Shown one piece after another: positions 1,774-15,581 of a DNA stretch of 64,000 bases (positions are counted from its first letter, which is position 1; each line of letters opens with the position of its first letter). The notes beneath the pieces were generated by a model. That model did no database searches and was not told where the DNA came from. It saw nothing but the letters and a program-made list of their open reading frames with translations. The DNA is taken from IMG/VR virus record IMGVR_UViG_3300013800_000001, positions 22,065 through 86,064 of that record. One strand, given 5' to 3'. Made by a program: the position numbers and the translations under genes. Source of the stretch: a virus. Its lineage: Duplodnaviria; Heunggongvirae; Uroviricota; Caudoviricetes.

Positions 1774-1802
1774 TTATACTCCCCCTTCAATCTGCAAATT
1801 TG

Positions 1803-1873
1803 TTTCAGTCCAAGGATTCGAACCTCACTTAACAGCTTCAGAGGCTGCTGTCCTACCGCTAGACGAGACTGAA
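1803..1873 (-). tRNA. tRNA-Gln(CTG)
   Basis: Acceptor TTCAGTC/GACTGAA, anticodon loop CTCTGAA, T-loop TTCGAAT. Confidence 0.7.
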
Positions 1874-1886
1874 AAATGAACTCTGG

Positions 1887-1960
1887 GGTGATCGGAGGGG
1901 CTCGAACCCTCAACGGCTCGCTTCACAAACGAGTACTCTGCCAATTGAGCTACGAACACC
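1887..1960 (-). tRNA. tRNA-His(GTG)
   Basis: Anticodon loop TTGTGAA. Extra 5' G(-1) opposite a C73 discriminator, the His identity signature. D-arm GCTCAATTGGCAGAG. Confidence 0.75.
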
Positions 1961-2148
1961 CCAGAATTCACTTGTGGACAGTGTCGGTAACGATCCGACT
2001 CTTTCTGGTTGCAAACCAGATGTGCTGGCCTTTATCACTAACCGCCCATAAATTGAAGAGTGGCCATCTAGTCCATTCAGGAGCGACCTGAGTTATCCCT
2101 TCGCTCTGCTAGATACCATTGAGGAAGGTGTTCGGCGTCTTCAATTTG

Positions 2149-2229
2149 TGGAGATAGAGAGAATCGAACTCTCGTCCGATAGAGTGCCCTTTCGGGATTT
2201 AACTACCGTCGAAACCATTGCTTATCCCC
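2149..2229 (-). ncRNA. Atypical tRNA-like element (81 nt): acceptor and T-arm present, no canonical D/anticodon arms, contains a CCC-GAAA-GGG hairpin
   Basis: Acceptor GGGGATA/TATCTCC and T-arm GAGAG-TTCGATT-CTCTC are clear. The internal part folds as GGTTT-(11 nt)-AAATC plus a CCCGAAAGGG GNRA hairpin instead of a 7-nt anticodon loop. Confidence 0.4.
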
Positions 2230-2230
2230 G

Positions 2231-2301
2231 CATAGAAACCTGGATTTGAACCAGGACTAAAGGTTTTGGAGACCTTTGTGCTGCCGTTACACTATTTCCA
2301 C
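2231..2301 (-). tRNA. tRNA-Trp(CCA)
   Basis: Anticodon stem AAGGT/ACCTT with loop CTCCAAA, G73 discriminator, T-arm CCTGG-TTCAAAT-CCAGG. Confidence 0.75.
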
Positions 2302-2431
2302 GTATTGCTTTTGCTTCTCGAAAATCTTTAGACTAAAGAAATCTTTAGCATTCCACCTGTTCTGCCACTTCATTTTATGAGGCTTACAGAGTGCACATGA
2401 TCGCTTTTTCTTTTTTAGTCTCTTTCTCATA

Positions 2432-2611
2432 CTACTTTCTTAACTCTAACTGATTCTCATTGAATATATGTAGCAACCCGTCTTTATGCTCTGCTACTAT
2501 TCTCACATCACCCTTTGTGTTGGTAAAAATAGCTACAATAATCGAGTTGAACTTATATCCACTAACTTTCTTTGCTTTATCGCCTATCTTGAATTTTGAC
2601 TTTATCTTCAT
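2432..2611 (-). CDS. Small hypothetical protein (59 aa, MKIKSKFKIGDKAKKVSGYKFNSIIVAIFTNTKGDVRIVAEHKDGLLHIFNENQLELRK) inside the tRNA array
   Basis: Translated by hand. It is one residue under the ORF-track cutoff. It looks like a KOW/SH3-like small domain and sits in a 330-nt tRNA-free gap. Confidence 0.4.
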   Translation of the reverse strand: MKIKSKFKIGDKAKKVSGYKFNSIIVAIFTNTKGDVRIVAEHKDGLLHIFNENQLELRK

Positions 2612-2630
2612 ATATTTCTTTATTTATCTG

Positions 2631-2704
2631 TAATCCTAGTCGGATTCGAACCGACGATAACCTGTCTGAAAAACAGGGGGCTTGGGCCGCTTGCCTATAG
2701 GATC
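2631..2704 (-). tRNA. tRNA-Glu(TTC)
   Basis: Anticodon stem CCTGT/ACAGG with loop TTTTCAG, T-arm GTCGG-TTCGAAT-CCGAC. Confidence 0.7.
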
Positions 2705-2709
2705 ATCTG

Positions 2710-2792
2710 TGGGAGGAGTTGGATTCGAACCAACAATGTTTCCGTGTCACGGTTTTACAGACCGCTTGCTTCACCAATTTGCATATCCGCCC
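2710..2792 (-). tRNA. tRNA-Tyr(GTA), class II
   Basis: 83 nt. Anticodon loop CTGTAAA, long variable arm, T-arm GTTGG-TTCGAAT-CCAAC. Confidence 0.7.
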
Positions 2793-2900
2793 TTTTGGAA
2801 CCTATTGCTAGGCGGCCTTTCACCCTATTGCGTAATGGGACTTCAGTAACGGATATATACGCTAACCGTTAAACCGAAAATGGCTCTTATTAATATTCTG

Positions 2901-2972
2901 TTGGCTTAACTAGATTCGAACTAGTGACCTTAGGATTAGAAGTCCTGCGCTCTTCCGCTGAGCTATAAGCCA
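2901..2972 (-). tRNA. tRNA-Arg(TCT)
   Basis: Perfect acceptor TGGCTTA/TAAGCCA, anticodon loop CTTCTAA, D-arm GCTCAGCGGAAGAGC. Confidence 0.75.
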
Positions 2973-2973
2973 G

Positions 2974-3047
2974 TAGGTTATGAAGGAGTCGAACCTTCAC
3001 TGTATGCATTTTGAGTGCATTGCGTCTGCCAATTGCGCCAATAACCC
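2974..3047 (-). tRNA. tRNA with Leu anticodon CAA but class-I (74-nt) architecture
   Basis: Anticodon stem TGCAT/ATGCA with loop CTCAAAA. A73. No long variable arm. It abuts its neighbours on both sides, so it cannot be longer. Confidence 0.6.
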
Positions 3048-3048
3048 G

Positions 3049-3120
3049 TAGGCAATGTTGGAATCGAACCAACGACTTGAAGTATATAAGACTTCATTTC
3101 TTCCACTGAATTAATTGCCT
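3049..3120 (-). tRNA. tRNA-Ile(TAT), reads AUA
   Basis: Perfect acceptor AGGCAAT/ATTGCCT, anticodon stem GAAGT/ACTTC with loop CTTATAT. Confidence 0.7.
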
Positions 3121-3213
3121 GTACGCAAGTATTCCCCCTCTATCACGATTACCAATCGGGGTCTTTCGACCTAATCACGATAGCTTCACCCGAATAGGAG
3201 GAATACCTACATG

Positions 3214-3285
3214 TTGGTAAGGAAGGAGTTGAACCTTCGACCTTAGCCGTATCAGGACTCTGCTCTACCGTTGAGCTACTCACCA
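3214..3285 (-). tRNA. tRNA-Ile(GAT)
   Basis: Acceptor TGGTGAG/CTTACCA, D-arm GCTCAACGGTAGAGC, anticodon loop CTGATAC. Confidence 0.65.
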
Positions 3286-3455
3286 ATATGGTCATTAGAT
3301 AGGTAAGGATTTGACGAGATGTGAGGCTGTAAAACCTTCTTTAATCTATCCACAGATAGAGCATTACTCGTATAGTCACCTTACATGGATTTCCTACCAG
3401 TATCTTTATCCCAACTGGTTTCAGGCGTTACTATTCCGCCACTATCTAAATCCCG

Positions 3456-3528
3456 TAGTTCCCCTGGGATTCGAACCCAGACTTTAGACATTTTAAGTGT
3501 CTTGCCTCTGCCGTTGGGCTAGAGAACC
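3456..3528 (-). tRNA. tRNA with Leu anticodon TAA but class-I (73-nt) architecture
   Basis: Anticodon stem AGACA/TGTCT with loop CTTAAAA. A73. Short variable loop. Confidence 0.6.
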
Positions 3529-3626
3529 ATTGCAATACCTTTTAATCCTATGTGCGGGGCCTCGATAATATTTATATCCAACCATGGTAACCTCACAAAA
3601 CACATTAACGGAAAAAAAGGATTTTG

Positions 3627-3707
3627 TGCGTTAGGAGAGACTCGAACTCTCAACCCTTTCGGGCACGGTTTCTAAGACCGCTGTGTAAACCGTTCCACCA
3701 CCAACGC
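3627..3707 (-). tRNA. tRNA-Leu(TAG), class II
   Basis: 81 nt. Anticodon stem GCGGT/ACCGT with loop CTTAGAA. Variable arm is a CCC-GAAA-GGG hairpin. Confidence 0.7.
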
Positions 3708-3749
3708 ATAGACTTATCGACTTATCGGCCATCGACGTATTACCATCTG

Positions 3750-3823
3750 TACGCTCTGAGGGATTTGAACCCCCGACTTTCTGGTTCGAAGCCAGACACT
3801 CTAGTCCACTGAGTTAAGAGCGT
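3750..3823 (-). tRNA. tRNA-Arg(TCG)
   Basis: Perfect acceptor ACGCTCT/AGAGCGT, anticodon stem TCTGG/CCAGA with loop CTTCGAA. Confidence 0.75.
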
Positions 3824-3949
3824 ATGTTCCCAGGCTTTCATTGGTACCTGGAGTGAGCCTGACATTAAGGGGTATAGCCCCGCATCTGACGACGCAACGT
3901 ACAACCACAATCCCGTAGTAAGGAAATGTATTCTAGTTACTTAATTCAC

Positions 3950-4046
3950 TAGTGGGGAGGAGCGCAAAGTATTACCAGTGACGCCATTCAACAGGGTACT
4001 CTATTACGCATTTCGCCTGAAGGTTTCGTAATCCCTCCCCCCCACT
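3950..4046. other. Structured spacer element: G-run (GTGGGGAGG) pairs with a C-run (CCTCCCCCCAC) about 80 nt away, enclosing repeated CGTAAT/ATTACG motifs
   Basis: It lies in the longest (about 235 nt) tRNA-free spacer of the array. No cloverleaf fits. Confidence 0.3.
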
Positions 4047-4058
4047 AAAGAACTATTG

Positions 4059-4129
4059 AGCACGATACTGGAATCGAACCAGTATATCAGGGTTTGCAAT
4101 CCTGCACCTAGCCTTTCGGTCAACCGTGC
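4059..4129 (-). tRNA. tRNA-Cys(GCA)
   Basis: Anticodon loop TTGCAAA. U73 discriminator, the Cys identity element. Confidence 0.7.
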
Positions 4130-4151
4130 TTATTTTAAAATAACTTCTTTG

Positions 4152-4225
4152 TAGTCCGTGTAGGACTTGAACCTACAACCTTCGGTATGTAACACCGTTG
4201 CTCTAGCCAATTGAGCTAACAGACC
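4152..4225 (-). tRNA. tRNA-Val(TAC)
   Basis: D-arm GCTCAATTGGCTAGAGC, anticodon loop GTTACAT, T-arm GTAGG-TTCAAGT-CCTAC. Confidence 0.7.
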
Positions 4226-4407
4226 AAATCAGGCAGGAGGGCGGCAATCCCCATCATGACTTACAGTGGGAGGGCTGTATAAGTCCCGCAGTAGAGCCTT
4301 TCTGCATTTCAACCTGGAGCGTCGTCAGGGTAACGATCCCTGTCCTTCGGTTTGGAAAACCACTATGCGTCCATGAACACCTACAACGCTTATTTTTCTA
4401 TCTTGGG

Positions 4408-4481
4408 AGCCTCCACGAGGATTCGAACCCCGGACCTACGCATTACAAGTGCGCCGCTCTGGCCAACTGAGCTATAAAGGC
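4408..4481 (-). tRNA. tRNA-Thr(TGT)
   Basis: Anticodon stem GCGCA/TGCGT with loop CTTGTAA, D-arm GCTCAGTTGGCCAGAGC. Confidence 0.7.
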
Positions 4482-4602
4482 TTATTACTAGAAATCATGG
4501 TTATCAATATGCCGTATTAGAGTTACTGATTACCATGAGCTGTGCCTACACTGGCTGGCAAGGCACTCGGTAGGGCTTCGGAATATGATCATCTCTTCCT
4601 TG

Positions 4603-4675
4603 TTGCGATAGTGAGAATCGAACTCACGTACTCCTGCTTATGAGACAGGCCTGGGGCCACTCCAGATATATCGCT
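4603..4675 (-). tRNA. tRNA with CAT anticodon (elongator Met or Ile2-lysidine type). Position 1-72 is an A-A mismatch.
   Basis: Anticodon loop CTCATAA. It lacks the three G-C pairs of initiator tRNAs. Confidence 0.65.
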
Positions 4676-4861
4676 ATATGATGTGGGCGCCTCGACCGAG
4701 GACACACATCGACTTTATCTATCCCATAAGCTGGGCTACCAACAAAACTCCAAAACTAGTATGTGCCCACATTGGCTTCTGTTAGCTAGACAGCAGCGCT
4801 TGAAGACATGGAGTGAATGTTCGTAAACCCCACTTATGAGATAGATTTTAAAATAACTGAG

Positions 4862-4932
4862 TCAGAGTACTAGGAGTTGAACCTAGGCCGAATCCTTCCA
4901 AAGGACTCGTGCTACCGTAACACTTTACTCTG
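4862..4932 (-). tRNA. tRNA-Pro(TGG)
   Basis: Perfect acceptor CAGAGTA/TACTCTG, anticodon loop TTTGGAA. Confidence 0.75.
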
Positions 4933-5015
4933 AGAGACGGATAGTTGTTTTTTCCAAGCAAGCAGCTAGGTAGGGGCTGCGATCCGTCAATGGGGCTTAA
5001 ACGCCGATATACCTG

Positions 5016-5087
5016 TGAGTCAGCCGAGAATTGAACTCGGGCCTGCTCCTTGAGAGGGAGCCGTCTTCGCCACTTGACTACAGACTC
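5016..5087 (-). tRNA. tRNA-Glu(CTC)
   Basis: Anticodon stem GCTCC/GGAGC with loop CTCTCAA, T-arm CCGAG-TTCAATT-CTCGG. Confidence 0.7.
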
Positions 5088-5190
5088 ATTTTTGGAACCA
5101 GACGTTTATAGTCCGGCGGCTCGTCTGACTTACGTGCTATAGGATGTGCACACCCCAACACTGCCGACGATGCTCTTTGATCAATTCCTG

Positions 5191-5261
5191 CGGGACATGC
5201 GAGAATCGAACTCGCACTTACTGGTAGACAACCAGGCGCGCTGCCACTACGCCAATGTCCC
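5191..5261 (-). tRNA. tRNA-Asp(GTC)
   Basis: Perfect acceptor GGGACAT/ATGTCCC. G73. Anticodon loop TTGTCTA. Confidence 0.7.
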
Positions 5262-5289: not shown

Positions 5290-5319
5290 AGTGTACATGA
5301 TGATTTTCCATTTGTCAAG
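5290..5319 (-). promoter_or_regulatory. Conserved phage promoter (TTGACA-N17-TACACT) driving the minus-strand tRNA array
   Basis: Reverse complement is cTTGACAaatggaaaatcatcatgTACACT, about 30 nt upstream of the first tRNA. Confidence 0.65.
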
Positions 5320-5325
5320 TCCCCT

Positions 5326-7474: not shown

Positions 7475-8179
7475 TTATATCAACATTAATGCCTTAATTA
7501 TAGCCTCCTTAAATTCCTTCATATTCCCAGAATCAGAATAGCTCACACCAAGTCCATCGGCTATTTGCCTCAAATTGGCAATCCCCTCGGGAGTGGTCGG
7601 AGCCTTCATTATCTTTCGCCTATTCTCATCATGATCCCCAATGTACAGACAATGCGCATCTCCAAGGCTTTTAGACATCTTTCGTGTCGGGTCCTTAATG
7701 CTCATAATCCTAGGAGTCTCCGTGAGGATAGTTTTTGCAACTTTTTTGATGCCTAGCCTTTTGCAAGTCCTGCGGTAGAACTCCATGTGCTGAATCTGGT
7801 CCTCACCAACGATGACAGCATCACAGTCAGAAAGGATGATATCAGCGGCCATGAGGCAGGGGTACGTAAAGAGTCCGACGTTCCCCTCCCCCTTATCCTT
7901 GAATTGGGTCATCCTTCTGAGGTCTGACATAGGAGTCACACATTGGATTTTAAACGCTAATACCGCTGCGTCTGGATTCTGCATGTAAGCCTTGCCGCCT
8001 AACTCCTCAAGTGTTTCAAGCACATTCACGACATTAATGACCGTATTGCTACCGGTTGTCTCAGCATGGTATTGGGCTACAAGCACCCTTGATTTCTTTT
8101 CTAGAGCCAACTTTAGGCCTCCTAAGTAGTTACCTAGGTGTATGCGTCCAGTCGGTTGTATGCCGTATAAGTATTTCAT
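7475..8179 (-). CDS. trpS-like: Truncated class-I aminoacyl-tRNA synthetase, tryptophanyl-tRNA synthetase-like catalytic core without the C-terminal anticodon-binding domain
   Basis: HIGH-type motif GIQPTGRIHLGNYLG. LRRMTQFKDK and LMAADIIL...VGEDQIQHMEF line up with E. coli TrpRS. KMSKS motif present. Only 234 aa against about 330. Confidence 0.8.
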   Translation of the reverse strand: MKYLYGIQPTGRIHLGNYLGGLKLALEKKSRVLVAQYHAETTGSNTVINVVNVLETLEELGGKAYMQNPDAAVLAFKIQCVTPMSDLRRMTQFKDKGEGNVGLFTYPCLMAADIILSDCDAVIVGEDQIQHMEFYRRTCKRLGIKKVAKTILTETPRIMSIKDPTRKMSKSLGDAHCLYIGDHDENRRKIMKAPTTPEGIANLRQIADGLGVSYSDSGNMKEFKEAIIKALMLI

Positions 8180-8207
8180 ATGGGTATAGTTTCTTTATCT
8201 ATGCCTA

Positions 8208-8237
8208 ATGTTACAGGAACATTTGGTATTTGTCAAG
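8208..8237 (-). promoter_or_regulatory. Variant copy of the conserved promoter (TTGACA-N17-TAACAT) driving the trpS-like operon
   Basis: Reverse complement is cTTGACAaataccaaatgttcctgTAACAT, 30 nt upstream of the trpS-like start. Confidence 0.55.
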
Positions 8238-8239
8238 AG

Positions 8240-9140
8240 GAAAGTCCTATTTTTTGCGAAAAAAATTTTGGCTTATCTGAAGCAAATAATTCAAAAAAAT
8301 GGGGGGTTAAATTTGTAGGGGTGTATGGACTTTCAAAAAATAGAAAATCTCCGTGTTGGTACCCTTCCACCACCCTATTTTCCAGACGGGACTCAGTACC
8401 GAATCACCCCCCATACCCCTATCAGCCTCGTAGTGTCCCCACTGTCCACGCTGTGTGCCCACCCACACTGTGTGCCTCTGCCTCTCACGCCCTGCCACCG
8501 TGCTCTCTACCACTTGATTGGTGTATATAACTATTAACCATACACAAGAGTATGTACATATACAGAGATGAGGCTACAGGTCTCTATCATTGCGATCATG
8601 TGTTCGTTACCGTACGTGGGCGTTGCTACCTGGTGGGGGTAGAGTACGTGGGCGTCACAAGGATGGAGGTCATACGTCAGGTAGTAGGCAATGCATGGTT
8701 CAAGAGAATGCGTCTCAACCTTGCTTACTCTATGACAGTGGATAGGTGAGTGGCTCTGTTGAGGGATTTACCACTTGAGTGGTGTTATGATTTAGGTCGA
8801 TTTAAAATCATGACGAGTGTTTGTGTGTTAGAGAAAAGTTAGAGTCGGTTGCTCTGATAACAGAGAATATCCGACAAAATGCTTGTAATAGGTATTACAG
8901 AGTGGCTAATAAACGCCAGCTGAATCAATCAACTACTTACGAAAGCAAAGACCATATCCACAGCAAACGTGATACATCTCACGAAATATATAATATACAC
9001 TGTGTGACTCGTCTGCTAGATAAGTAAAGACTCAGAGAGCATAAGCCACTGTCAAATGCCTACTACAAGCAAATCTCGCTTTATGCGGGTTAAGCGCTTG
9101 CACCGTAACAACTGCAATATCATCAATCTAAAATAATCCT
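8240..9140. other. About 0.9-kb non-coding region with atypical C/pyrimidine-rich, strand-biased composition and short repeats
   Basis: Repeats: CACGCTGTGTGCC / CACACTGTGTGCC, GTACGTGGGCGT x2, CCACTTGA(T/G)TGGTG x2. Only short, odd-composition ORFs. It lies between divergent transcription units. Confidence 0.45.
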
Positions 9141-9656
9141 ATGCCATTGCATAAAACATATATCCTCATAAAAGACCAACCTAGAATTGGTAAAGAGGCT
9201 GGAGATTACTATAACCATGAGTACTCCAATAGTATTGAAGACCTGCTAGCTCGAGGGATTATTGAAGAAGAAATTGATGAGTCTAAAGAAGTAAATAATT
9301 TTAAAGATAATATTATGTCACAAGAAACAATGCAAGAAGTAACTCCAGTATCACAAAACGACGGACTCAAGAACTTTATCATCGGTAAAGTATGGGCTCA
9401 GTCACAAGACGGTTCACGAGCTGGTTCTATCAAGATTAACCGTTCTCTACCAGCAAAGCTCGTCATCACACCAGGTATGACTCTTTTCCTCACAGCCAAC
9501 AAAAAGCGTGAAGGAAAGCAGGATGCAGATTATAGCGTATCAGTGCTCCTTCCAAAAGAGACTGCTGACCGTCTTATCGCAGCCCAAAACTTGGCAGAAG
9601 CAAACATCAAGAATGTAGAATTTGAGAACCAGAGCCAGGCTCATGGTCAAGAGTAA
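9141..9656 (+). CDS. Hypothetical protein (171 aa)
   Basis: ORF track. First gene of the plus-strand block. Confidence 0.5.
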   Translation: MPLHKTYILIKDQPRIGKEAGDYYNHEYSNSIEDLLARGIIEEEIDESKEVNNFKDNIMSQETMQEVTPVSQNDGLKNFIIGKVWAQSQDGSRAGSIKINRSLPAKLVITPGMTLFLTANKKREGKQDADYSVSVLLPKETADRLIAAQNLAEANIKNVEFENQSQAHGQE

Positions 9657-9756
9657 TACATAACACTCAACATGGGGATTAAAACCTCATGTAGGTGGCA
9701 AATTCGCACTCTAGTAGTGCTTGAGCGTTCTATGGGCATCGTATAAGAGCCCTAAC

Positions 9757-9801
9757 TAAAGCTGTTTTAAGAATTCACCCTCTTTTAACAGCTTTTTTTA
9801 T
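9757..9801 (+). terminator. Rho-independent terminator
   Basis: AAGCTGTT ... AACAGCTT hairpin followed by TTTTTTATT. Confidence 0.5.
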
Positions 9802-9835
9802 TGTCCACAAATTAACAAAAATACGTTTCAAACAT

Positions 9836-10084
9836 ATGAAACTCAAATATATCATGACAGACCAGCGTTACTTCATCATGTTCCCAATCACTCTCAATCA
9901 CGATGAAGTAGCTGCTGCTAATCGTCGTTTGCTCCCAGGAGAAGTCAGAAGTGCTGGATTCGTCAACTTTCGCATGAATGATGATGAAATACTAGAAGCT
10001 GTGCCTTTTGGAAAAAGCATTTCACTCAAGATGGAAGCCCATCCTGATGATGAAGGAATAATCAACAGAGCCATGAATCTCTAA
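9836..10084 (+). CDS. Hypothetical protein (82 aa)
   Basis: ORF track. Confidence 0.5.
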   Translation: MKLKYIMTDQRYFIMFPITLNHDEVAAANRRLLPGEVRSAGFVNFRMNDDEILEAVPFGKSISLKMEAHPDDEGIINRAMNL

Positions 10085-10088
10085 TCAT

Positions 10089-10334
10089 ATGACATACGCA
10101 AAAGCCAAAGAAATGGCCTCAAATGCAGGATACAAACAACCAAAAGAAGTAGCTGAAGCATATGACCATTCTGAGTTCTGGAGATACTTCAGCAAAGCAA
10201 TGAAATGGCCAGAATATCTCCCAGGAACAGATATACCCACATGGTACGTCAAATACCTATCACATAAAGGCCACATACTCACCGGCAACTCTCCTGAAAG
10301 CTGGTTCAAATGGGTAGGATTAACTCAAAACTAA
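10089..10334 (+). CDS. Hypothetical protein (81 aa)
   Basis: ORF track. Confidence 0.5.
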   Translation: MTYAKAKEMASNAGYKQPKEVAEAYDHSEFWRYFSKAMKWPEYLPGTDIPTWYVKYLSHKGHILTGNSPESWFKWVGLTQN

Positions 10335-10345
10335 AATAATAAACT

Positions 10346-11038
10346 ATGGGACTACGATTCGACCACGGGAAGGTAATAATCATTAACATCACAACAAGAT
10401 ATCAATATGAATATCACTGCAAAGAATTAGAAAAACTAGGATACAGATGGCGTAGCAAAGAAAAAATGACAGAAAAGCCACTCTGCGAAGTCAGCCTTCC
10501 AATGGCTTTCTACATAGAAGCAAACAAAGAAGTTGGCTATGGAAGCAGACAATTAACAGAAAATTCTCTATTCAAGCCATTTACGATAGCTCAATTAAAA
10601 AACACTTATCATTCAACAAATAATATTATGCCTCCAAAAACAACACCAAAAGCTTCTGATATCAAAGTAGGAGCCACATTTATCAATCAATATGGACATC
10701 AGGTCACTGTTACAGAGATTTATTACACCCATAAAGAAGTAAGTGGATTCAAATTCAATGACGGTGAAACAGCTGGCCCAGGATGGACATTTAGAAACAT
10801 GAAATTCATCAAAAACCCAGGTCCTACACCAAAAGCACCCAAAGCAAACTTCCTCCTCAAATATGACCTTGATGAAGATCCTATCGAAGAATACGAGACA
10901 ATGAAGCAAGTTGATGACCGCATCAAATATCTTGTAGAAAACGTTCAAGAACTCAAAAAAGAATCAATTGTTATCTATGAAATAAAGAAAAAGCATAGAG
11001 TGACCATCTCTACCCGTATCACCAAAAGAAACGCTTAA
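10346..11038 (+). CDS. Hypothetical protein (230 aa)
   Basis: ORF track. The antisense ORFs inside it are rejected. Confidence 0.55.
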   Translation: MGLRFDHGKVIIINITTRYQYEYHCKELEKLGYRWRSKEKMTEKPLCEVSLPMAFYIEANKEVGYGSRQLTENSLFKPFTIAQLKNTYHSTNNIMPPKTTPKASDIKVGATFINQYGHQVTVTEIYYTHKEVSGFKFNDGETAGPGWTFRNMKFIKNPGPTPKAPKANFLLKYDLDEDPIEEYETMKQVDDRIKYLVENVQELKKESIVIYEIKKKHRVTISTRITKRNA

Positions 11039-11071
11039 ATCAAACAAATAATTAATATAATATATAAATTT

Positions 11072-11545
11072 ATGTCAAAAGCTTACAAAAACCTCACAAA
11101 GCTCCAAGTAGAAACAGCTGAACAAGTGCTTCGAGAAGCTCTCCGAAAAAGAACCAAAGAAATCGCAGACAAAAAAGAAGCAGAAGCTCGAAAGAAGCAC
11201 GAAGCGGCAATGAAGGCAATCATCACAAAAGTAAAGAAATTTACTGATGAAATCATGAAAGATAAGAAGAAAATCGAAAAAGATCCAAACTTCTACCTAA
11301 TACTCGGATCAAATGAATACAGCGATCCAATTCGTGACCTAGACCCAACAAGAGGAGCGCTCACATCAGAAAAACTACTTAATGTCAGAAAGAAAGACGG
11401 ACATCACTACAATGAGTCTGTTTTCACTCCAGACACAACCAAAGAAGAAGAAGTCATCAGAAACTTCATTCTTGAGCTCAAATTGGGTACAGCAGTCATG
11501 GAAGATATCAAGCAAATCATGAAAGTAATCGAATCAATCAAGTAA
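11072..11545 (+). CDS. Hypothetical Lys/Glu-rich coiled-coil protein (157 aa)
   Basis: ORF track. Confidence 0.55.
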   Translation: MSKAYKNLTKLQVETAEQVLREALRKRTKEIADKKEAEARKKHEAAMKAIITKVKKFTDEIMKDKKKIEKDPNFYLILGSNEYSDPIRDLDPTRGALTSEKLLNVRKKDGHHYNESVFTPDTTKEEEVIRNFILELKLGTAVMEDIKQIMKVIESIK

Positions 11546-11555
11546 TTATCCTTTA

Positions 11556-11590
11556 ACAGAGGGCTAGACTAACCTCTAGCCCTCTTAAAT
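11556..11590 (+). terminator. Stem-loop, possible weak terminator
   Basis: GAGGGCTAG-actaacct-CTAGCCCTC hairpin. The downstream tract is AT-rich rather than a clean T-run. Confidence 0.3.
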
Positions 11591-11598
11591 ATAAATAT

Positions 11599-11880
11599 AT
11601 GTTCACAATATTACTCACAGGATTAATCCTCCCTATCATAGTAGGAATAATCATCGGACTAACAATCATAGAAATAATAAAATTTGTTTTCAACAGAAAA
11701 AGTGAAGAAAACTCTTATTTCATAGAAATACAAACAGAAGACAAAAAATACAAAAACTGGATATCAATACACAGAACAACTGCATATGAAGCTATAGAAG
11801 CAGCCGAGAAGAAAGTAAGAGAAAAAACATACAACGAAGGAAACGGCCGATGGTTTATCAGTAAAATAACAAAACTATAA
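11599..11880 (+). CDS. Small membrane protein (N-terminal TM helix)
   Basis: ORF track. Hydrophobic N-terminus ILPIIVGIIIGLTIIEII. Confidence 0.5.
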   Translation: MFTILLTGLILPIIVGIIIGLTIIEIIKFVFNRKSEENSYFIEIQTEDKKYKNWISIHRTTAYEAIEAAEKKVREKTYNEGNGRWFISKITKL

Positions 11881-12123
11881 ATAAATATATGAAATGGCTA
11901 CAAAACTACCTTTGCTACTGGGATCTAAGACATAGACTCACAAAAATAGGCTTAGGAAAAGGTTATATATGTTTCCATTGCTACAAAAAGTTCCCTTACA
12001 AACATTAATCTAAAACTATGTTAATCGAAATAGGACCAAATCTATCAGTAGCACTACAAGGATTCGCTTTTGCTTTAGGATTCGTAGGATTCTGGTGGGC
12101 AATAACTCGCAATTAATAAATAT

Positions 12124-12651
12124 ATGTCAACACGATGCCAATTAGGAATATATCCTAAACAAGGAACACCTATCAAAGATTTTGAAACACTCATTTACAG
12201 ACACTCAGATGGTTATCCATCAGGAGTTTTGCCAGATATTATGCCATTTCTCGTTCACTTCAAAACAAACAGAGGACTTGATGACATTGAATACGCCACA
12301 GCCAGATTAATCCAATACATGACCAATCAAAGCGATGAATCACACCGAGAATGGCAAAAACAATGGATGAAAGAAAATCCTCAAGAAATAAAGAAAAACT
12401 ACGAGAAAGCATTAGAAATGAAAAAAACACAAAAGTTCGGAAATGTCACAGGATTTGGAATATCTAATGCATTACATGGAGATATTGAATATTTCTACTA
12501 TATAAGCCAAGAGACAGTTATCGTATACACAATGGATATATGGCATGGAATAAATAACCCAGCATCAAACATAAATCAAATTGGAACAATACCAATCACG
12601 CTTGACTGGGAAACAGATCCAACATACCTAAAATTAATTCAAAATCATTAA
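12124..12651 (+). CDS. Hypothetical protein (175 aa)
   Basis: ORF track. Confidence 0.55.
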   Translation: MSTRCQLGIYPKQGTPIKDFETLIYRHSDGYPSGVLPDIMPFLVHFKTNRGLDDIEYATARLIQYMTNQSDESHREWQKQWMKENPQEIKKNYEKALEMKKTQKFGNVTGFGISNALHGDIEYFYYISQETVIVYTMDIWHGINNPASNINQIGTIPITLDWETDPTYLKLIQNH

Positions 12652-12656
12652 AATAT

Positions 12657-13028
12657 ATGAAAAATAAGAATGGAGTTCACTACATCTCAAAAAATATCTG
12701 CAAGAAAATAGTCAGAAAACTAGGAAAAAACAGCCCAGATACGACATTTATATTCAATTTATCCAACAATGCAAAAGCAAAAATCGTATATTGCGGAGAT
12801 GTTTCAAATCCAGTATCAGTCTTCAATGAAGCATTTATCCCAGCATATACAGTCAATGACCTACTCATGCCAGACGGAATTTTTGCTCGCTTAATGGACA
12901 AAAAGCTAGAAGATCCAGAAGTTAAGTTCGTCGAAAAGACGTCTACACTCTGCAACATCTTCACCACACTCTGGCACGAAGCCTCATGGAAAGAAGCTGA
13001 AGCCTACCTTAATTCTCTAGTCTCATAA
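12657..13028 (+). CDS. Hypothetical protein (123 aa)
   Basis: ORF track. Confidence 0.5.
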   Translation: MKNKNGVHYISKNICKKIVRKLGKNSPDTTFIFNLSNNAKAKIVYCGDVSNPVSVFNEAFIPAYTVNDLLMPDGIFARLMDKKLEDPEVKFVEKTSTLCNIFTTLWHEASWKEAEAYLNSLVS

Positions 13029-13036
13029 ACATATAT

Positions 13037-13282
13037 ATGAAAGCAATAGTAACAGCAAAATTTGAATTTGATGTAACAGACTGGTACGAAGATGAAAAAC
13101 TAACACTAAAACAAAAAGAAAAACAACTAAAAGAAGATTTATCAGACTTTTCAGTATTCATGCCATTAGCTGAATACAACACACTAAAAGATGTAAATGT
13201 AGATGTAATCCATAAAGTAAAATGTATATGCATAGATAATAAACTAGACAGAAAATGCATAGCTAAAATACATAACTGGTAA
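13037..13282 (+). CDS. Hypothetical protein (81 aa)
   Basis: ORF track. Confidence 0.5.
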   Translation: MKAIVTAKFEFDVTDWYEDEKLTLKQKEKQLKEDLSDFSVFMPLAEYNTLKDVNVDVIHKVKCICIDNKLDRKCIAKIHNW

Positions 13283-13286
13283 TTCT

Positions 13287-13721
13287 ATGAACCAAACAGA
13301 AATCAACAAAAAAACTGAAGATGAAGTAATTAGCCTAAATCTCGCTCAGGAGCTTAAAACACTCGGAGTGACACAAATATCCTACTTTGGATGGATAAAG
13401 ACGTCAGAGGGCAAAATAATGCTCGTAGACGTACGCTACGCAACACCAAAGAATAGCCAAGAGGAATTACTTTGTGCTGCTTACACCAACAAAGACATTG
13501 ATGTATTCCTATCAAAATATCAAGACCAAAGAGAAACATACTACGAAGAAACAGAAATATTCTCAGGATATGAACAAGAAAATGGTTTCTTTTGTGGCAT
13601 GTACAGCCATGGAATTGATAGATTCGCCACAATGGAATACGCAGACAAACCAGGTGATGCTAAAGCTAAAATGCTCATCGAATTAATCAAAAAAGGCCAT
13701 ATTAAAGTAAAAGAACTATAA
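13287..13721 (+). CDS. Hypothetical protein (144 aa)
   Basis: ORF track. Confidence 0.55.
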   Translation: MNQTEINKKTEDEVISLNLAQELKTLGVTQISYFGWIKTSEGKIMLVDVRYATPKNSQEELLCAAYTNKDIDVFLSKYQDQRETYYEETEIFSGYEQENGFFCGMYSHGIDRFATMEYADKPGDAKAKMLIELIKKGHIKVKEL

Positions 13722-13725
13722 AATT

Positions 13726-14142
13726 ATGGAAGAAACAACAAAAAGCCCTGAAAATGAGGCAAAAGAATCAGCACAAACAATAAAAGATGCAGCAAAAATA
13801 CTTAAAGAAGCTGCTGACATAGCAGAAAAGATAAGAAAGGAAATAAATGAAGGAAAAAAAGAAACATTGAAGCTAATTGAAGAAGAAGCCCCTAAATTCG
13901 CTAGATTCATCATTGTCAAAGAAAATCTATTCCAATCAATTATTGCAGATATCCTTACATTCGGAGCTCTTATCGGTGTAATCGCTATCAACTACCAATA
14001 CTTCGAAAACAGCACATTCGGAGCATGGATGTTAGGAATAATGTTCTTTATCATGATTTCAGCAAAAGCTAAGCAAAGAAGCAAAGAAATTATAGGTAAA
14101 GAAAATCTCATTAAATACCTTGAACACCTAAAAAATCACTAA
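13726..14142 (+). CDS. Hypothetical protein with a C-terminal TM segment (138 aa)
   Basis: ORF track. Confidence 0.55.
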   Translation: MEETTKSPENEAKESAQTIKDAAKILKEAADIAEKIRKEINEGKKETLKLIEEEAPKFARFIIVKENLFQSIIADILTFGALIGVIAINYQYFENSTFGAWMLGIMFFIMISAKAKQRSKEIIGKENLIKYLEHLKNH

Positions 14143-14148
14143 AAACAT

Positions 14149-14586
14149 ATGCTTAGATTCAAAATAGGAGACGAAGTAATAGCAAACCATACCGCAACAG
14201 AAGAATACGAATACACAATAACAAAACCAGGATGGAAAGGAAAAGTAATAGACGTAGCAGTAGATGGAGACCCAGACATGATACAGGTTGAAGGAAAAAA
14301 TGATCGTGGAGAAATTGACGATTATCCAGTAAACCAAAACGCATTCGATTTAATTCACTCAACAACAGGAAATATGCCAGAAACACCACAAATCAGCGAC
14401 ATCGCAAAACAACTCAAAAGAAAAGGTCCAAAAAAACCATTCAAAATAACCTTTAAGTTCAATCTAGATGCAGAAGGTGTAGATGAAGAACATGCCTCAG
14501 AAGAAGCCTACAAAAACCTAGAAAGAGCTTTCCCAGGAATAAACACAGATAGATTCACAATAACTGACATACTAGAAGTAATCTAA
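14149..14586 (+). CDS. Hypothetical protein (145 aa)
   Basis: ORF track. Confidence 0.55.
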   Translation: MLRFKIGDEVIANHTATEEYEYTITKPGWKGKVIDVAVDGDPDMIQVEGKNDRGEIDDYPVNQNAFDLIHSTTGNMPETPQISDIAKQLKRKGPKKPFKITFKFNLDAEGVDEEHASEEAYKNLERAFPGINTDRFTITDILEVI

Positions 14587-14594
14587 AAAAACTT

Positions 14595-14954
14595 ATGGAA
14601 GCACAAAACATTAATCCAATAGCTGAAGCACTAAAAAAGAAAGAAGAAGAAAAACTAACAGCAAAAACAGGATTAGGAACTCAACAAATAAATCAAATAC
14701 TCTCAGCATCACAACCATTCACCCCAAACTTTGGAATGGTCAATGGAACATCAGTAAAACTAAATATTGAATTCGTAGCCAAGCAAATCAAAACCCTAAG
14801 AAACAATGCTGGAATGACACAAAGATCATTAGCAAAAATAGCTCATGTTTCACAAGGAACAATTGCTAGAGCCGAAAAAGGAAATGCAGAAGTATCATTC
14901 TACACATTCTGCAAAATAGCCACAGCATTAGGAAAGATAATTACATTAACATAA
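14595..14954 (+). CDS. XRE/Cro-type helix-turn-helix transcriptional regulator
   Basis: Segment LRNNAGMTQRSLAKIAHVSQGTIARAEKG matches the XRE HTH pattern. Confidence 0.6.
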   Translation: MEAQNINPIAEALKKKEEEKLTAKTGLGTQQINQILSASQPFTPNFGMVNGTSVKLNIEFVAKQIKTLRNNAGMTQRSLAKIAHVSQGTIARAEKGNAEVSFYTFCKIATALGKIITLT

Positions 14955-14959
14955 ATATT

Positions 14960-15382
14960 ATGAGCGTAAGAGGACTCGCAATGGGACAAGAAGGAACTGA
15001 AAAGCGAAAGCCTACAACACCTTCTTACTACCCAAAGTACACACCACCAGCGTATACACCAAAAACGGGAGGATGGGGAGGACAATTACTACCAGAAGTA
15101 GAAGAAACAAACTACTACACACCTAGTAAATATGCCTCAACAGACACAAAACAGATTGACATTCTCATCAGAATACCAATGAAAGATATGATTTCTGTAA
15201 CAGATTTCTACGATCCTAAATATGACTACCAAGCAGCTTCATTAGAAGCAGAAGAAATAGCTTACGACAAGCTAGTAGAACTATTAGGAAAAGAGTTTGA
15301 ATCAAAATACACCAGTACATTCGACACCATGGAAGGAGTAACCTTCTATGAAGTAACAGCATTTCTAGTACCAGTTAAATAA
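14960..15382 (+). CDS. Hypothetical protein (140 aa)
   Basis: ORF track. Confidence 0.55.
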   Translation: MSVRGLAMGQEGTEKRKPTTPSYYPKYTPPAYTPKTGGWGGQLLPEVEETNYYTPSKYASTDTKQIDILIRIPMKDMISVTDFYDPKYDYQAASLEAEEIAYDKLVELLGKEFESKYTSTFDTMEGVTFYEVTAFLVPVK

Positions 15383-15395
15383 ACAAAATAAACAT

Positions 15396-15566
15396 ATGAA
15401 TCAAGAGCAAAAAGATAGGAAAGAAATGGATAGAGACCCTCTAGAACGCTTAAATAAAGCAAGAACAAAGAGACTCGAAAAAGCATACTTTCAAAAGCTC
15501 AAAGATGAAGAACTATTCGAAGAAGATAGAGAGATATTAGACGAGCTAGGAATTAACCATTATTAA
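15396..15566 (+). CDS. Small hypothetical protein (56 aa), below the track cutoff
   Basis: Hand translation MNQEQKDRKEMDRDPLERLNK...GINHY. It fills the gap before the ATPase gene. Confidence 0.35.
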   Translation: MNQEQKDRKEMDRDPLERLNKARTKRLEKAYFQKLKDEELFEEDREILDELGINHY

Positions 15567-15581
15567 ATCAAAATATATATT

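What the first reader, a model, noticed from the sequence alone, without database searches (positions are those of the whole stretch)
8240..9140. 0.9-kb non-coding island with strand-asymmetric C-rich composition and short direct repeats between divergent operons
In an otherwise AT-rich genome with small spacers, this stretch is C/pyrimidine-rich on the plus strand (runs like CCCCCCATACCCCTATCAGCC, CACGCTGTGTGCCCACCCACACTGTGTGCC). It contains repeated GTACGTGGGCGT and CCACTTGA(T/G)TGGTG units and has no credible ORF. Candidates are a structured non-coding RNA, a second replication origin or packaging site, or foreign DNA.
Basis: seen in the sequence. Interest (0 to 1): 0.55.

Follow-up and report, generated by a model that had tools for sequence, protein, structure and literature searches.

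The report
Conserved phage operon leader, hidden gene
The "empty" C-rich island is the conserved control region at the head of a phage operon: it hides a real 65-amino-acid gene and carries a C-rich/G-poor tract plus several conserved hairpins found in no RNA database, most likely a regulatory leader RNA.

Summary
The composition claim is correct: 8334-8520 is the most C-rich, most negatively GC-skewed and highest-GC 180-nt stretch of the 64 kb, and all three short repeats occur only here. "No credible ORF" is wrong. The ORF at 8552-8749 is a real 65-aa gene, with homologs at the same position in relatives, 10/10/34 substitutions at codon positions 1/2/3, and a confident fold.

The rest is conserved non-coding sequence. 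At least ten diverged lineages of uncultivated tailed phages keep the same ordered elements upstream of one ~100-aa gene family that always opens a rightward operon:
- an A/T palindrome
- the lead motif TTTAAAAAAGTAGAAAATCTCCGTG
- a 90-180-nt C-rich/G-poor tract (composition conserved, sequence free)
- a box hairpin (H1)
- a hairpin with GUCGA fixed in the loop and a different stem in every lineage (H2; p about 1e-5)
- in longer versions, a third hairpin and a long-range helix

Non-coding blocks are 90-96% identical where the neighbouring gene is about 70%. Rfam has no match.

My best reading is a long, structured plus-strand 5' leader. Its C-rich tract meets published Rho-loading (rut) criteria, and two adjacent hairpins follow it in a put/nut-like position. 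Transcription, Rho dependence and the transcript start are inferred, not shown. An origin, a packaging site or foreign DNA are less likely.

The parts
8208..8236 (-). Sigma-70-like promoter of the leftward TrpRS-like/tRNA operon (TTGACA 8236-8231, 17-nt spacer, TAACAT 8213-8208)
   Evidence: Consensus scan, 10 of 12 matches. It lies 22-50 nt upstream of the ATG at 8179. This is a pattern match only.
8241..8274 (.). A/T palindrome AAGTCC-TA-TTTTTTGCGAAAAAAATTTT-GGCTT. It is the conserved boundary element between the divergent units.
   Evidence: Unique in the window. Equivalent palindromes are present in L051, L048, L070, L064/L074, L065, L066, L077, L079 and L082. The inner A6/T6 arms are swapped between the window and L051 while hairpin potential is kept (read).
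8301..8306 (+). G6 run about 35 nt upstream of the lead motif
   Evidence: G6-G8 runs occupy the same relative position in L051, L048 and L070, with a weaker one in L066. L064 has none. Role unknown.
8330..8365 (+). Lead motif CTTTCAAAAAATAGAAAATCTCCGTGTTGGTACCCT. It is the most conserved non-coding block and the candidate rightward promoter or 5' end of the leader.
   Evidence: Consensus TTT(A/T)AAAAA(A)GTAGAAAATyTCCGTG across window, L051, L048, L070, L065 and L063, partial in L009, L066 and L079. It shares the GAAAATC core with the phage's repeated promoter. Promoter function is inferred.
8356..8507 (+). C-rich/G-poor tract with core AATCACCCCCCATACCCC (C6 at 8407-8412) and a local 17-nt tandem duplication CCACRCTGTGTGCC (8446-8476). 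It is a candidate Rho-loading (rut-like) unstructured leader segment.
   Evidence: Composition is the extreme of the window. The best 78-nt window at 8362 has C=35, G=10, with regularly spaced C. It is non-coding: it differs from L050 by single-nt indels and shows no codon periodicity. C-richness and G-poorness are conserved in the relatives fetched while the sequence is free.
8508..8551 (+). Box 1: the upstream copy of the TACCACTTGAkTGGTGT repeat (weak hairpin ACCA/TGGT), plus the block running to the ATG
   Evidence: 100% identical to L050 from ACCACTTGA to the ATG, while the adjacent tract differs by about 17%. Only two copies exist in 64 kb. Compact relatives in which tblastn finds no small-ORF homolog have one box only.
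8552..8749 (+). Small protein-coding gene, 65 aa (five beta-strands plus a long C-terminal helix), function unknown
   Evidence: - Homologs lie at the same position: P0001 at 42% identity (BLASTP 8e-10), plus P0003, P0004 and P0002.
- Substitutions by codon position: 3/3/13 against L050 and 7/7/21 for L051 against L048.
- AlphaFold pLDDT is 91.
- No Pfam, PHROG or PDB match.
8612..8655 (+). The two GTACGTGGGCGT copies flanking a small hairpin CTACC/GGTAG (8626-8642), all inside the small gene
   Evidence: The repeats are unique to this place. L050 and L073 carry CTATC/GATAG, a compensatory C-G to T-A change. The repeat is lineage-specific and absent from the L051-type gene.
8769..8784 (+). Box 2 / hairpin H1 (ACCAC-UUGA-GUGGU)
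   Evidence: Folded in window, L051 and L064. The stems differ between lineages (ACCAC/GUGGU, CAACU/AGUUG, UACAA/UUGUA) while the CUUGA loop is kept (read). Also flagged as terminator-like. 100% conserved against L050 and L073.
8785..8813 (+). Hairpin H2: stem UUAUGAUUU/AAAUCAUGA, loop AGGUCGAUUUA with the conserved GUCGA core
   Evidence: Every one of ten lineages has a stem around GUCGA, and each stem has a different sequence. The longest-helix test against all positions of the same loci gives Fisher p=1.1e-5. A shuffle test is, and the folds are.
8844..8875 (+). Hairpin H3: outer stem GUCGG/CCGAC, inner stem CUCUG-AUAA-CAGAG
   Evidence: Found 31-88 nt after H2 in six independent lineages, with different outer stems. 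Window against L073 shows a compensatory change, GUCGG/CCGAC to AUCGG/CCGAU.
8880..9071 (+). Long-range helix (arms 8880-8910 and 9041-9071) closing a variable domain of about 130 nt
   Evidence: Inverted repeat of 31 nt, 81% complementary. The 306-nt segment 8815-9120 folds with z=-3.4, and its L073 homolog folds on its own into the same topology with z=-3.9. The arms are 90-92% conserved against L073 and the interior only 52%.
9067..9117 (+). Conserved block CGCTTTATGCGGGTTAAGCGCTTGCACCGTAACAACTGCAA (hairpin CGCUU/AAGCG at 9067-9086), with the motif GGTyAAGCG...ATCGTA shared by relatives
   Evidence: Over 90% identical to L073. Related motifs lie 30-190 nt before the start of the right-hand gene in L051, L063, L066, L077 and L078 (read).
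9141..9656 (+). First gene of the rightward operon. It belongs to a family of at least 134 uncharacterised proteins of about 100 aa. The conserved core starts at the Met at 9315, and about 9118-9300 is a lineage-specific insertion.
   Evidence: Family search. The alignment with L073 shows the insertion. It is always the first gene after a 300-1260-nt gene-free divergent gap. AlphaFold pLDDT is 81 and there is no PDB match.

Best explanation
The island is the conserved control region at the head of the phage's rightward operon (9141-19295), and it is mostly a long structured 5' leader read on the plus strand.

Proposed layout:
1. An A/T palindrome separates the divergent promoters.
2. A rightward transcript starts at or just before the lead motif (about 8340-8355). 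This is inferred.
3. Its first roughly 150 nt are a C-rich, G-poor and therefore unstructured tract. This tract is the kind of RNA that termination factor Rho loads onto.
4. Two adjacent hairpins follow: H1, and H2 with its fixed GUCGA loop. The longer versions also have H3 and a long-range helix.
5. The first conserved gene of the operon comes next.

Proposed mechanism (inferred): the C-rich tract makes transcription into the operon conditional, through Rho-dependent attenuation. The H1-H2 pair acts as a cis RNA signal that modulates pausing or termination or recruits a factor, in the position that nut and put sites occupy in lambdoid phages.

In the window's lineage a real 65-aa gene sits inside this leader, bracketed by a duplicated box. 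Translating it would also shield or expose leader RNA. The duplicated box looks like the scar of a cassette insertion.
For: Shown:
1. The architecture is conserved, in the same order, upstream of one gene family that always opens a rightward operon, in at least ten diverged lineages.
2. C-richness and G-poorness are conserved while the sequence is not. The best 78-nt windows have C/G of 3.5 in the window and 2.8-39 in the relatives, mostly at the 98th-99.98th percentile of their own loci (three compact relatives are weaker). C residues are regularly spaced and hairpins follow within 150 nt. This meets the RhoTermPredict definition (criteria from PMC6407284).
3. H2 has a fixed GUCGA loop core and ten different stems (Fisher p=1.1e-5). 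H3 recurs in six lineages, with a compensatory G-C to A-U change between window and L073.
4. The segment 8815-9120 folds with z=-3.4 and z=-3.9 in two diverged copies.
5. Strand: the H1-H3 segment has z between -1.05 and -2.89 on the plus strand in 9 of 9 lineages, and a lower MFE than the minus strand in 9 of 9. Several stems contain G-U pairs that would be A-C mismatches on the minus strand.
6. Non-coding blocks are 90-97% identical where synonymous sites or the adjacent coding sequence differ by 26-31%.
7. The small ORF is a gene: codon-position counts of 10/10/34 give chi-square 21.3 and p about 2e-5, it has homologs, and its model has pLDDT 91.
8. Relatives in which no small-ORF homolog is detected carry a single box.
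9. The phage's own repeated strong promoter is absent from the plus strand of the island, so the rightward operon needs a different start signal here.
Against: - There are no expression data, so the transcript start, its direction through the C-rich tract and Rho dependence are all inferred.
- No convincing sigma-70 -35/-10 pair fits the lead motif or the boxes.
- A high C/G ratio alone is not rare in this AT-rich genome. About 0.9% of plus-strand 78-nt windows reach 3 or more, and RhoTermPredict-type criteria are known to be unspecific, with 23,930 predictions in E. coli.
- Per-lineage hairpin statistics are modest, with p between 0.003 and 0.77. Only the combined value is strong.
- The minus strand also folds better than shuffles on average (mean z -1.3), as expected for hairpins, so the strand call is a preference and not proof.
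- The host is unknown, so the presence and type of Rho are unknown.
- Some relatives have perfect DnaA boxes and replication-type genes next to the gap.
Confidence: 0.55

Rival explanations
1. One or more stand-alone structured non-coding RNA genes, for example an RNA starting after box 2 and covering H2, H3 and the long-range helix (about 8785-9117). This RNA would act in trans rather than as the operon's 5' leader.
For: - The 8815-9120 segment is strongly structured in two diverged copies (z -3.4 and -3.9).
- It is more conserved than the flanking coding sequence.
- H1 is terminator-like and could end the small gene's transcript.
- In L051 against L048, a block of about 150 nt after H2 is about 97% identical.
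Against: - In compact relatives (L064, L065, L074, L082) only H1-H2 remain, followed by the gene within 40-90 nt. That leaves no room for a separate RNA gene.
- The elements always point towards the downstream gene and stay next to it.
- No terminator follows the structured domain.
- No Rfam family matches.
Confidence: 0.15
2. A replication origin. The A/T palindrome would be the unwinding element, the strand-asymmetric G/C tract would form a stable R-loop or primer when transcribed leftward as G-rich RNA, and the hairpins would be single-strand initiation signals.
For: - The position, a large divergent intergenic region, is typical of origins.
- An A/T-rich palindrome is conserved.
- Perfect DnaA boxes TGTGGATAA occur in L065 and L079/L080, with 8-of-9 matches in L064/L074.
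- The leftward neighbours in L074 are an HTH_36 protein and a DnaA/DnaC-like ATPase.
- Strong G/C strand asymmetry favours R-loops. This point rests on established knowledge of ColE1 and T4 oriF/oriG, not on anything tested here.
Against: - Cumulative GC skew has no inflection at the island. It declines steadily to about 23 kb.
- There are no conserved iterons.
- The left part of the window's island has no DnaA box.
- No leftward promoter is detectable to the right of the tract.
- The elements travel with the right-hand gene whatever lies on the left: TrpRS, a 57-aa ORF, HNH or replication genes.
- The hairpins prefer the plus strand and contain G-U pairs.
Confidence: 0.12
3. A genome terminus or packaging (pac/cos) region that assembly has joined across.
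For: The IMG/VR contig behind L009 ends exactly at the lead motif, TAAAAACCTCCGTG. Large non-coding regions with repeats occur at phage ends.
Against: - Three independent assemblies read through the island with identical sequence: the window, L001 and L086.
- Many relatives' contigs also span it.
- No terminase gene lies next to it.
- One contig end is weak evidence.
Confidence: 0.05
4. Foreign, junk or decayed DNA with no function. The repeats would be chance or slippage products.
For: The composition is unlike the rest of the genome. There is no database match by blastn, Rfam, Pfam or PHROGs.
Against: The architecture is conserved over large divergence. Non-coding blocks are more conserved than coding sequence. 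Stem changes are compensatory. The embedded gene is under purifying selection.
Confidence: 0.03

Closest known systems
Rho-dependent attenuators in mRNA leaders (rut sites), as defined for RhoTermPredict (PMC6407284) and studied in bacterial leaders (PMC5314796)
   Same: An untranslated tract of at least 78 nt with C well above G and regularly spaced C. Sequence is free while composition is kept, and hairpins follow within 150 nt. It sits between a presumed promoter and the first gene of an operon.
   Different: Neither transcription nor Rho dependence is shown. The tract is unusually long (150-180 nt) and C-rich (45% C) for a 39% GC genome. It carries a conserved C5-C8 core (ACCCCCCCATACCCC), which rut sites do not need. 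The host is unknown.
Lambdoid early-operon antitermination signals: HK022 putL/putR (two stem-loops, about 70 nt, downstream of PL/PR; PMC9378689) and lambda nut sites. The lambda comparison rests on my own knowledge.
   Same: Two adjacent stem-loops (H1-H2, about 45 nt) lie in the leader of an operon. In the window lineage they come just after a small first gene of about 65 aa, as putR and nutR follow cro. The loop sequence is conserved and the stems vary.
   Different: No sequence similarity was detected and no antitermination was tested. No lambdoid gene context is present. Here the element follows, rather than precedes, the rut-like tract. The GUCGA loop motif is not a put or boxB feature.
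PeSL cassettes of T4-type phages: composite promoter-terminator stem-loops that bracket small ORFs and mediate their gain and loss (PMC2839356, PMC4122927)
   Same: A 17-24-nt direct repeat containing a stem-loop and a -35-like ACTTGA brackets one small ORF. Relatives in which no small-ORF homolog is detected have a single copy, as expected after recombination between repeats.
   Different: Only two copies exist in 64 kb, whereas PeSLs are dispersed through hyperplastic regions. No matching -10 element is present. This is not a T4-type genome.
Large conserved phage-associated RNAs next to tRNA arrays (GOLLD, ROOL). The association with tRNA arrays rests on my own knowledge.
   Same: A non-coding region of several hundred nt with conserved structure lies in a phage genome about 3 kb from a 26-tRNA array.
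   Different: No Rfam family reached even E<=10 on the island, and no family other than tRNA reached E<=0.1 in the relatives' loci. The island is modular and interrupted by a gene, not one compact ornate RNA.

Membership tests
Any Rfam 15 family | Covariance-model score at or near the gathering threshold | tested here: not met
   The island gives six hits at E 3.4-8.8, all far below gathering. At E<=0.1, eleven relatives' loci give only a tRNA.
T-box leader (considered because a TrpRS-like gene lies to the left) | Match to the T-box model, located upstream of and on the same strand as the aaRS gene | tested here: not met
   No Rfam family, T-box included if Rfam holds it, appears among the E<=10 matches on either strand. 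In relatives the TrpRS gene has no such gap upstream, and the island travels with the right-hand gene instead.
Rho-dependent terminator / rut site | 78-nt window with C/G > 1 (top tier > 2) and C spaced every 11-13 nt | tested here: met
   At 8362-8439, C=35 and G=10, a ratio of 3.5, with spaced C. Relatives have ratios of 2.8-39. The criteria come from PMC6407284.
Rho-dependent terminator / rut site | Hairpin or pause element within 150 nt downstream | tested here: met
   The box-1 hairpin lies at 8509-8522 in the window. In compact relatives H1 and H2 follow the tract directly.
Rho-dependent terminator / rut site | The tract is transcribed, untranslated and unstructured | tested here: inconclusive
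   It is untranslated: indels and the lack of codon periodicity against L050 show this. Being G-poor should limit self-structure, but the whole-island MFE pairs part of it with the G-rich small gene. Transcription cannot be tested here.
Rho-dependent terminator / rut site | Termination depends on Rho | not testable with these tools
   This needs in vitro transcription with Rho, or bicyclomycin treatment in vivo.
HK022 put-type cis antiterminator RNA | Two stem-loops of about 70 nt in the nascent RNA downstream of an early promoter | tested here: inconclusive
   Two adjacent conserved stem-loops, H1-H2, are present at 8770-8813. The promoter position and its timing class are unknown.
HK022 put-type cis antiterminator RNA | Sequence or structure homology to putL/putR, and binding to RNA polymerase with read-through of terminators | not tested
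   No put sequence was compared. Activity cannot be tested here.
PeSL mobile regulatory cassette | Stem-loop-containing repeats that bracket small ORFs, with presence/absence polymorphism between relatives | tested here: met
   The repeats lie at 8508-8524 and 8769-8785. Relatives in which tblastn finds no small-ORF homolog have one box.
PeSL mobile regulatory cassette | Many dispersed copies per genome that include a functional early promoter | tested here: not met
   Only two copies exist in 64 kb. The phage's real repeated promoter is a different motif. No -10 element lies at a workable spacing.
Replication origin | AT-rich unwinding element | tested here: met
   The A/T palindrome at 8250-8269 is conserved in relatives.
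Replication origin | Iterons or clustered initiator (DnaA) boxes | tested here: inconclusive
   No conserved iterons. Perfect DnaA boxes occur in L065 and L079/L080 only. By eye I saw only an 8-of-9 DnaA-box match in the window's island, ATATCCACA at about 8953-8961, and ran no dedicated scan.
Replication origin | Switch of cumulative GC skew | tested here: not met
   Cumulative skew falls steadily from 0 to about 23 kb, with only a local blip at 8.5-9.0 kb.
Protein-coding gene (ORF 8552-8749) | Excess of third-position substitutions, conserved length and position, detectable homologs, and a foldable product | tested here: met
   Codon-position counts are 3/3/13 and 7/7/21. ORFs of 65-67 aa lie at the same place in five sequence types, plus L070 and L063. 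BLASTP gives 8e-10. The model has pLDDT 91.
Recoded genetic code hiding a long ORF | A frame that opens when one stop codon is reassigned | tested here: not met
   All six frames keep stops of at least two kinds across the island. Gene density under the standard code is normal.

The most novel reading that the evidence does not exclude
H1-H2 (the GUCGA-loop hairpin pair), together with the C-rich tract, is a new and widespread class of phage cis-acting transcription-elongation control RNA. In this reading a built-in Rho-loading site is coupled to a factor-independent or phage-factor-dependent anti-terminator, functionally like put/nut but unrelated in sequence. It would gate a conserved operon (a ~100-aa protein, an HTH protein and a MoxR/CobS-CobT module) in a large clade of uncultivated tailed phages.
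Probability: 0.2. Interest if true: 0.7.

Novelty: new variant of a known kind. Interest (0 to 1): 0.5.

Why it matters
If the reading is right, it adds an unrecognised family of regulatory RNA elements, plus two uncharacterised protein families (a small 65-aa protein and an operon-opening ~100-aa protein with at least 134 clusters). All are conserved across a clade of environmental phages known only from metagenomes.

It would also give a concrete, testable example of how phages outside the lambdoid model gate an operon through termination control.

In practice, it shows that gene callers miss or inconsistently call the 65-aa gene. It was called on L001 but not on L086, which has identical sequence. 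It also shows that the start of the right-hand gene is probably mis-annotated in this genome.

Tried and rejected
- **Database searches:** blastn of the island and tblastn of the right-hand gene against 50,697 phage records gave nothing. Rfam at gathering and at E<=10 gave nothing. Pfam and PHROGs found nothing for any island ORF.
- **Alternative genetic code:** no frame opens.
- **Synteny through TrpRS:** relatives have no gap upstream of TrpRS, so this was a dead end.
- **Motif scans of viral contigs:** 34 hits for TACCACTTGA..AGGTCGA were almost all chance, apart from L036 and L042. L047 was chance. The lead-motif-plus-C-run pattern gave three chance hits in GC-rich coding sequence.
- **Small-protein locus scan:** nothing in viral contigs.
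- **Structural alignment:** MAFFT could not register H2 across lineages. The covariance model R1, seeded from two near-identical sequences, recovered four lineages at E 0.001-0.25 but aligned H2 poorly and missed the compact forms. I therefore used alignment-free anchor tests. The first statistic, the number of enclosing pairs, was uninformative and I replaced it.
- **Fold searches:** no significant PDB match for either protein.
- **Sigma-70 promoter inside the boxes:** TTGAgt/TTGAtt lie 22-29 nt from the nearest -10-like hexamer, which is too far.
- **G6 run pairing with the C6 core:** this is 9 bp in the window, but it is not consistent across lineages because L064 has no G run.
- **Identical copies:** L001 and L086 are identical to the window and added no substitutions.
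Full report
**1. The observation**

The stretch 8180-9140 lies between a minus-strand TrpRS-like gene (7475-8179, PF00579) and a plus-strand ORF starting at 9141. The TrpRS-like gene heads a leftward unit that ends in a 26-tRNA array.

Under the standard code the window is densely coding, and this is its largest gap outside the tRNA region. No stop-codon reassignment opens a frame across it.

The composition claim holds quantitatively. The 180-nt window at about 8334-8520 has 73-74 C against a mean of 34.6 (SD 8.0). It has the most negative GC skew (-0.46) and the highest GC (0.578) of all windows.

The three short repeats are real and occur nowhere else in the 64 kb. In 100 shuffles, none reached two matches.

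**2. A hidden gene**

L001 and L086 are independent assemblies identical to the window. On L001 a gene caller had called the 65-aa ORF at 8552-8749.

Reading diverged relatives showed ORFs of 65-67 aa at the same position:
- The window's product is 42% identical to P0001 (BLASTP 8e-10).
- A profile search of 5.8 billion proteins returns just five clusters, none annotated.
- Substitutions between close pairs fall 3/3/13 (window against L050) and 7/7/21 (L051 against L048) on codon positions 1/2/3. Pooled, that is 10/10/34, chi-square 21.3 on 2 df, p about 2e-5.
- AlphaFold gives a confident model (pLDDT 91) of five beta-strands and a long C-terminal helix. It has no significant PDB neighbour.

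So 'no credible ORF' is wrong. Both GTACGTGGGCGT copies lie inside this gene, flanking a small hairpin. That hairpin shows a compensatory C-G to T-A change in L050 and L073.

The C-rich tract itself is not coding. It differs from L050 by single-nt indels and shows no codon periodicity.

**3. Conserved non-coding architecture**

The right-hand gene belongs to a family of at least 134 clusters of uncharacterised proteins of 92-125 aa.

In every contig fetched, this gene is the first gene of a rightward operon. It sits behind a gene-free divergent gap of 300-1260 nt, whatever lies on the left. Downstream the operon often carries an HTH_3 protein and a MoxR/CobS-type ATPase. The window has the ATPase too, followed by a CobT-like protein.

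The gaps share the same ordered elements:
- an A/T palindrome
- usually a G run
- the lead motif TTT(A/T)AAAAA(A)GTAGAAAATyTCCGTG
- a C-rich/G-poor tract of 90-180 nt with a C5-C8 core, otherwise free in sequence
- a 'box' hairpin, H1
- hairpin H2
- in the longer versions, H3, a long-range helix and a GGTyAAGCG...ATCGTA block before the gene

Compact relatives (L064/L074, L065, L082) have one box, and tblastn finds no small-ORF homolog in them. In the window lineage the small gene therefore sits between duplicated boxes.

**4. Evidence that the non-coding parts are functional and structured**

*Conservation.*
- Window against L050: the two ~45-nt blocks starting at ACCACTTGA are 100% identical, while the C-rich tract differs by about 17%.
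- L051 against L048: about 150 nt after H2 is about 97% identical, while third codon positions of the small gene differ by 31%.
- Window against L073: 8759-8808, 8859-8908 and 9054-9117 are 90-96% identical, while the right-hand coding sequence is 68-74%.

*Hairpin H2.*
- It has GUCGA fixed in its loop, and its stem is different in each of ten lineages. Examples are UUAUGAUUU/AAAUCAUGA, ACGAUAUA/UAUAUCGU, AUUGGUU/AACCAAU, GUUAUAA/UUAUAAC, UAUGAACU/AGUUCAUA and ACCCUAA/UUAGGGU.
- The longest helix enclosing the anchor was compared with helices enclosing all other positions of the same loci. This gives Fisher p=1.1e-5. An earlier energy-based shuffle test gave about 2e-4.
- A conserved loop with variable arms is the opposite of a dimeric-protein operator. 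It points to a folded single strand.

*Hairpin H3.* It recurs in six lineages with different outer stems. Between window and L073 the outer stem shows a compensatory change, GUCGG/CCGAC to AUCGG/CCGAU.

*The right half.* The 306 nt from 8815 to 9120 fold with z=-3.4. The L073 homolog folds on its own into the same topology with z=-3.9.

*Strand.* The H1-H3 segment folds better than shuffles on the plus strand in 9 of 9 lineages, and more stably than the minus strand in 9 of 9. This is a preference, not proof.

*Known families.* Rfam has no match in the window or in the relatives.

**5. Mechanism**

*What is shown.* The region combines three things at the head of a conserved operon:
- a composition-conserved C-rich/G-poor tract
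- a conserved pair of hairpins, plus further structure
- an embedded small gene

*What is inferred.*
- The rightward transcript starts at the lead motif, which is A-rich and -10-like.
- The phage's own repeated strong promoter, CTTGACAAATGGAAAATCATCATGTACACT, is absent here on the plus strand. The operon must therefore use a different signal.
- The tract meets the published rut definition: C/G of 3.5 in 78 nt, spaced C, and a downstream hairpin (criteria from PMC6407284). Those criteria are unspecific, and similar C/G ratios occur elsewhere in this AT-rich genome.
- The H1-H2 pair occupies the place that put and nut signals occupy in lambdoid early operons. HK022 put RNAs are two stem-loops of about 70 nt, and putR lies about 270 nt downstream of PR (PMC9378689).

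I therefore propose Rho-dependent attenuation modulated by the hairpin element and by translation of the small gene. I give about 0.55 to the general claim of a regulatory structured leader. I give roughly 0.3 to the specific Rho and antitermination mechanism.

The duplicated box around the small gene resembles PeSL cassettes (PMC4122927). It fails the 'many dispersed copies' criterion.

**6. Rival explanations**

- *Stand-alone ncRNA.* This is possible for the long versions, but the compact relatives leave no room for one.
- *Replication origin.* It has in its favour the A/T palindrome, DnaA boxes in some relatives and replication genes next to the gap in L074. There is no skew inflection, no iterons and no leftward promoter. 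The elements also follow the right-hand gene.
- *Terminus or packaging site.* It rests on one contig end against several read-through assemblies.
- *Foreign or junk DNA.* The conservation data contradict it.

**7. Verdict**

The island is a conserved, modular operon control region with a hidden small gene and RNA-like elements that are not in Rfam. It is a new variant of a known kind of system, and of moderate interest. The main open question, whether and from where it is transcribed, can be tested directly.

Noticed in passing
window 2146-2229 (-): An 84-nt 'mini-tmRNA' sits inside the tRNA array. Rfam tmRNA scores 60.1 bits (gathering 47), but only the tRNA-like ends are present (GGGGATAAGCAATGGTTTCGACGG ... 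GGACGAGAGTTCGATTCTCTCTATCTCCACAA), with no mRNA-like tag region. ARAGORN does not call it.
   Followed up: partly
window 5290-5324(-), 23691-23725(+), 29481-29515(+), 36050-36084(+), 42714-42748(+); weaker copies at 97-119(-), 23259-23281(-), 23744-23766(+): A highly conserved promoter of about 30 nt, CTTGACAAATGGAAAATCATCATGTACACT (TTGACA, a conserved 17-nt spacer, TACACT), is repeated at operon starts, including the one driving the tRNA array. The conserved spacer suggests recognition beyond plain sigma-70.
   Followed up: partly
window 134-5261 (-) and 7475-8179 (-): An array of 26 tRNA genes, all on the minus strand, lies together with a short (234 aa) TrpRS-like gene. The best phage-database relatives of that gene (41.7-44.3% identity) are in the 642-735-kb 'huge phage' genomes LR756501-3.
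   Followed up: partly
window 9118-9300: The N-terminal 58 aa of the called 171-aa ORF lie in a segment that is absent from the close relative L073. Family members are 92-125 aa, so the true start is probably 9315 or 9330 and the annotation is likely over-extended.
   Followed up: yes
L070 920-1295, 1441-1662 and 2134-2392: This relative has two paralogs of the ~100-aa gene, with the small-ORF homolog between them. The C-rich tract precedes the first paralog, and neither TACCACTTGA box is present.
   Followed up: partly
L036 about 13225 and 12945 (minus strand) = L081 1457-1510 and 1737-1790: A direct repeat of about 50 nt (CCTACCTTGCGTAGGTCAAGCGTATAGTGGTATCGTArCCCAAATCCAC) occurs twice, 280 nt apart, in the long leader of the L051-type phage. 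It contains the GGTCAAGCG...ATCGTA motif seen once in the window at 9078-9103.
   Followed up: no
L065 about 1585-1593; L079 about 1703-1711; L064/L074: Perfect DnaA-box 9-mers (TGTGGATAA) lie in a block conserved between L065 and L079 (…AAAACyTGTGGATAAC…CGAGGGAAAA…), 100-200 nt upstream of the A/T palindrome. L064/L074 have TGTGGATAT.
   Followed up: partly
L009 position 1 (end of IMGVR_UViG_3300029171_000014): A 46.8-kb viral contig ends exactly at the lead motif (TAAAAACCTCCGTG). This could be coincidence, an assembly break or a genuine terminus.
   Followed up: no
L051 3281-3353 (-): A tRNA gene lies just to the left of the island in the L051-type phage. This mirrors the window, where tRNAs lie in the leftward unit.
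   Followed up: no
L081 (JAGWAE010000025.1) and L082 (JBAZDQ010000042.1): Phage contigs that carry this island are binned into a 'Candidatus Woesearchaeota' MAG (sequence identical to the L051 type) and a Bacteroidales MAG. These are probably binning artefacts and give at best weak host hints.
   Followed up: partly
window 9141-19295 compared with 23800-51000: The operon headed by the island has a distinct composition (GC 0.31-0.41, AT skew +0.12 to +0.46, GC skew near or below zero) compared with the other plus-strand block (GC skew about +0.15 to +0.3). This suggests a separate expression or evolutionary module.
   Followed up: no
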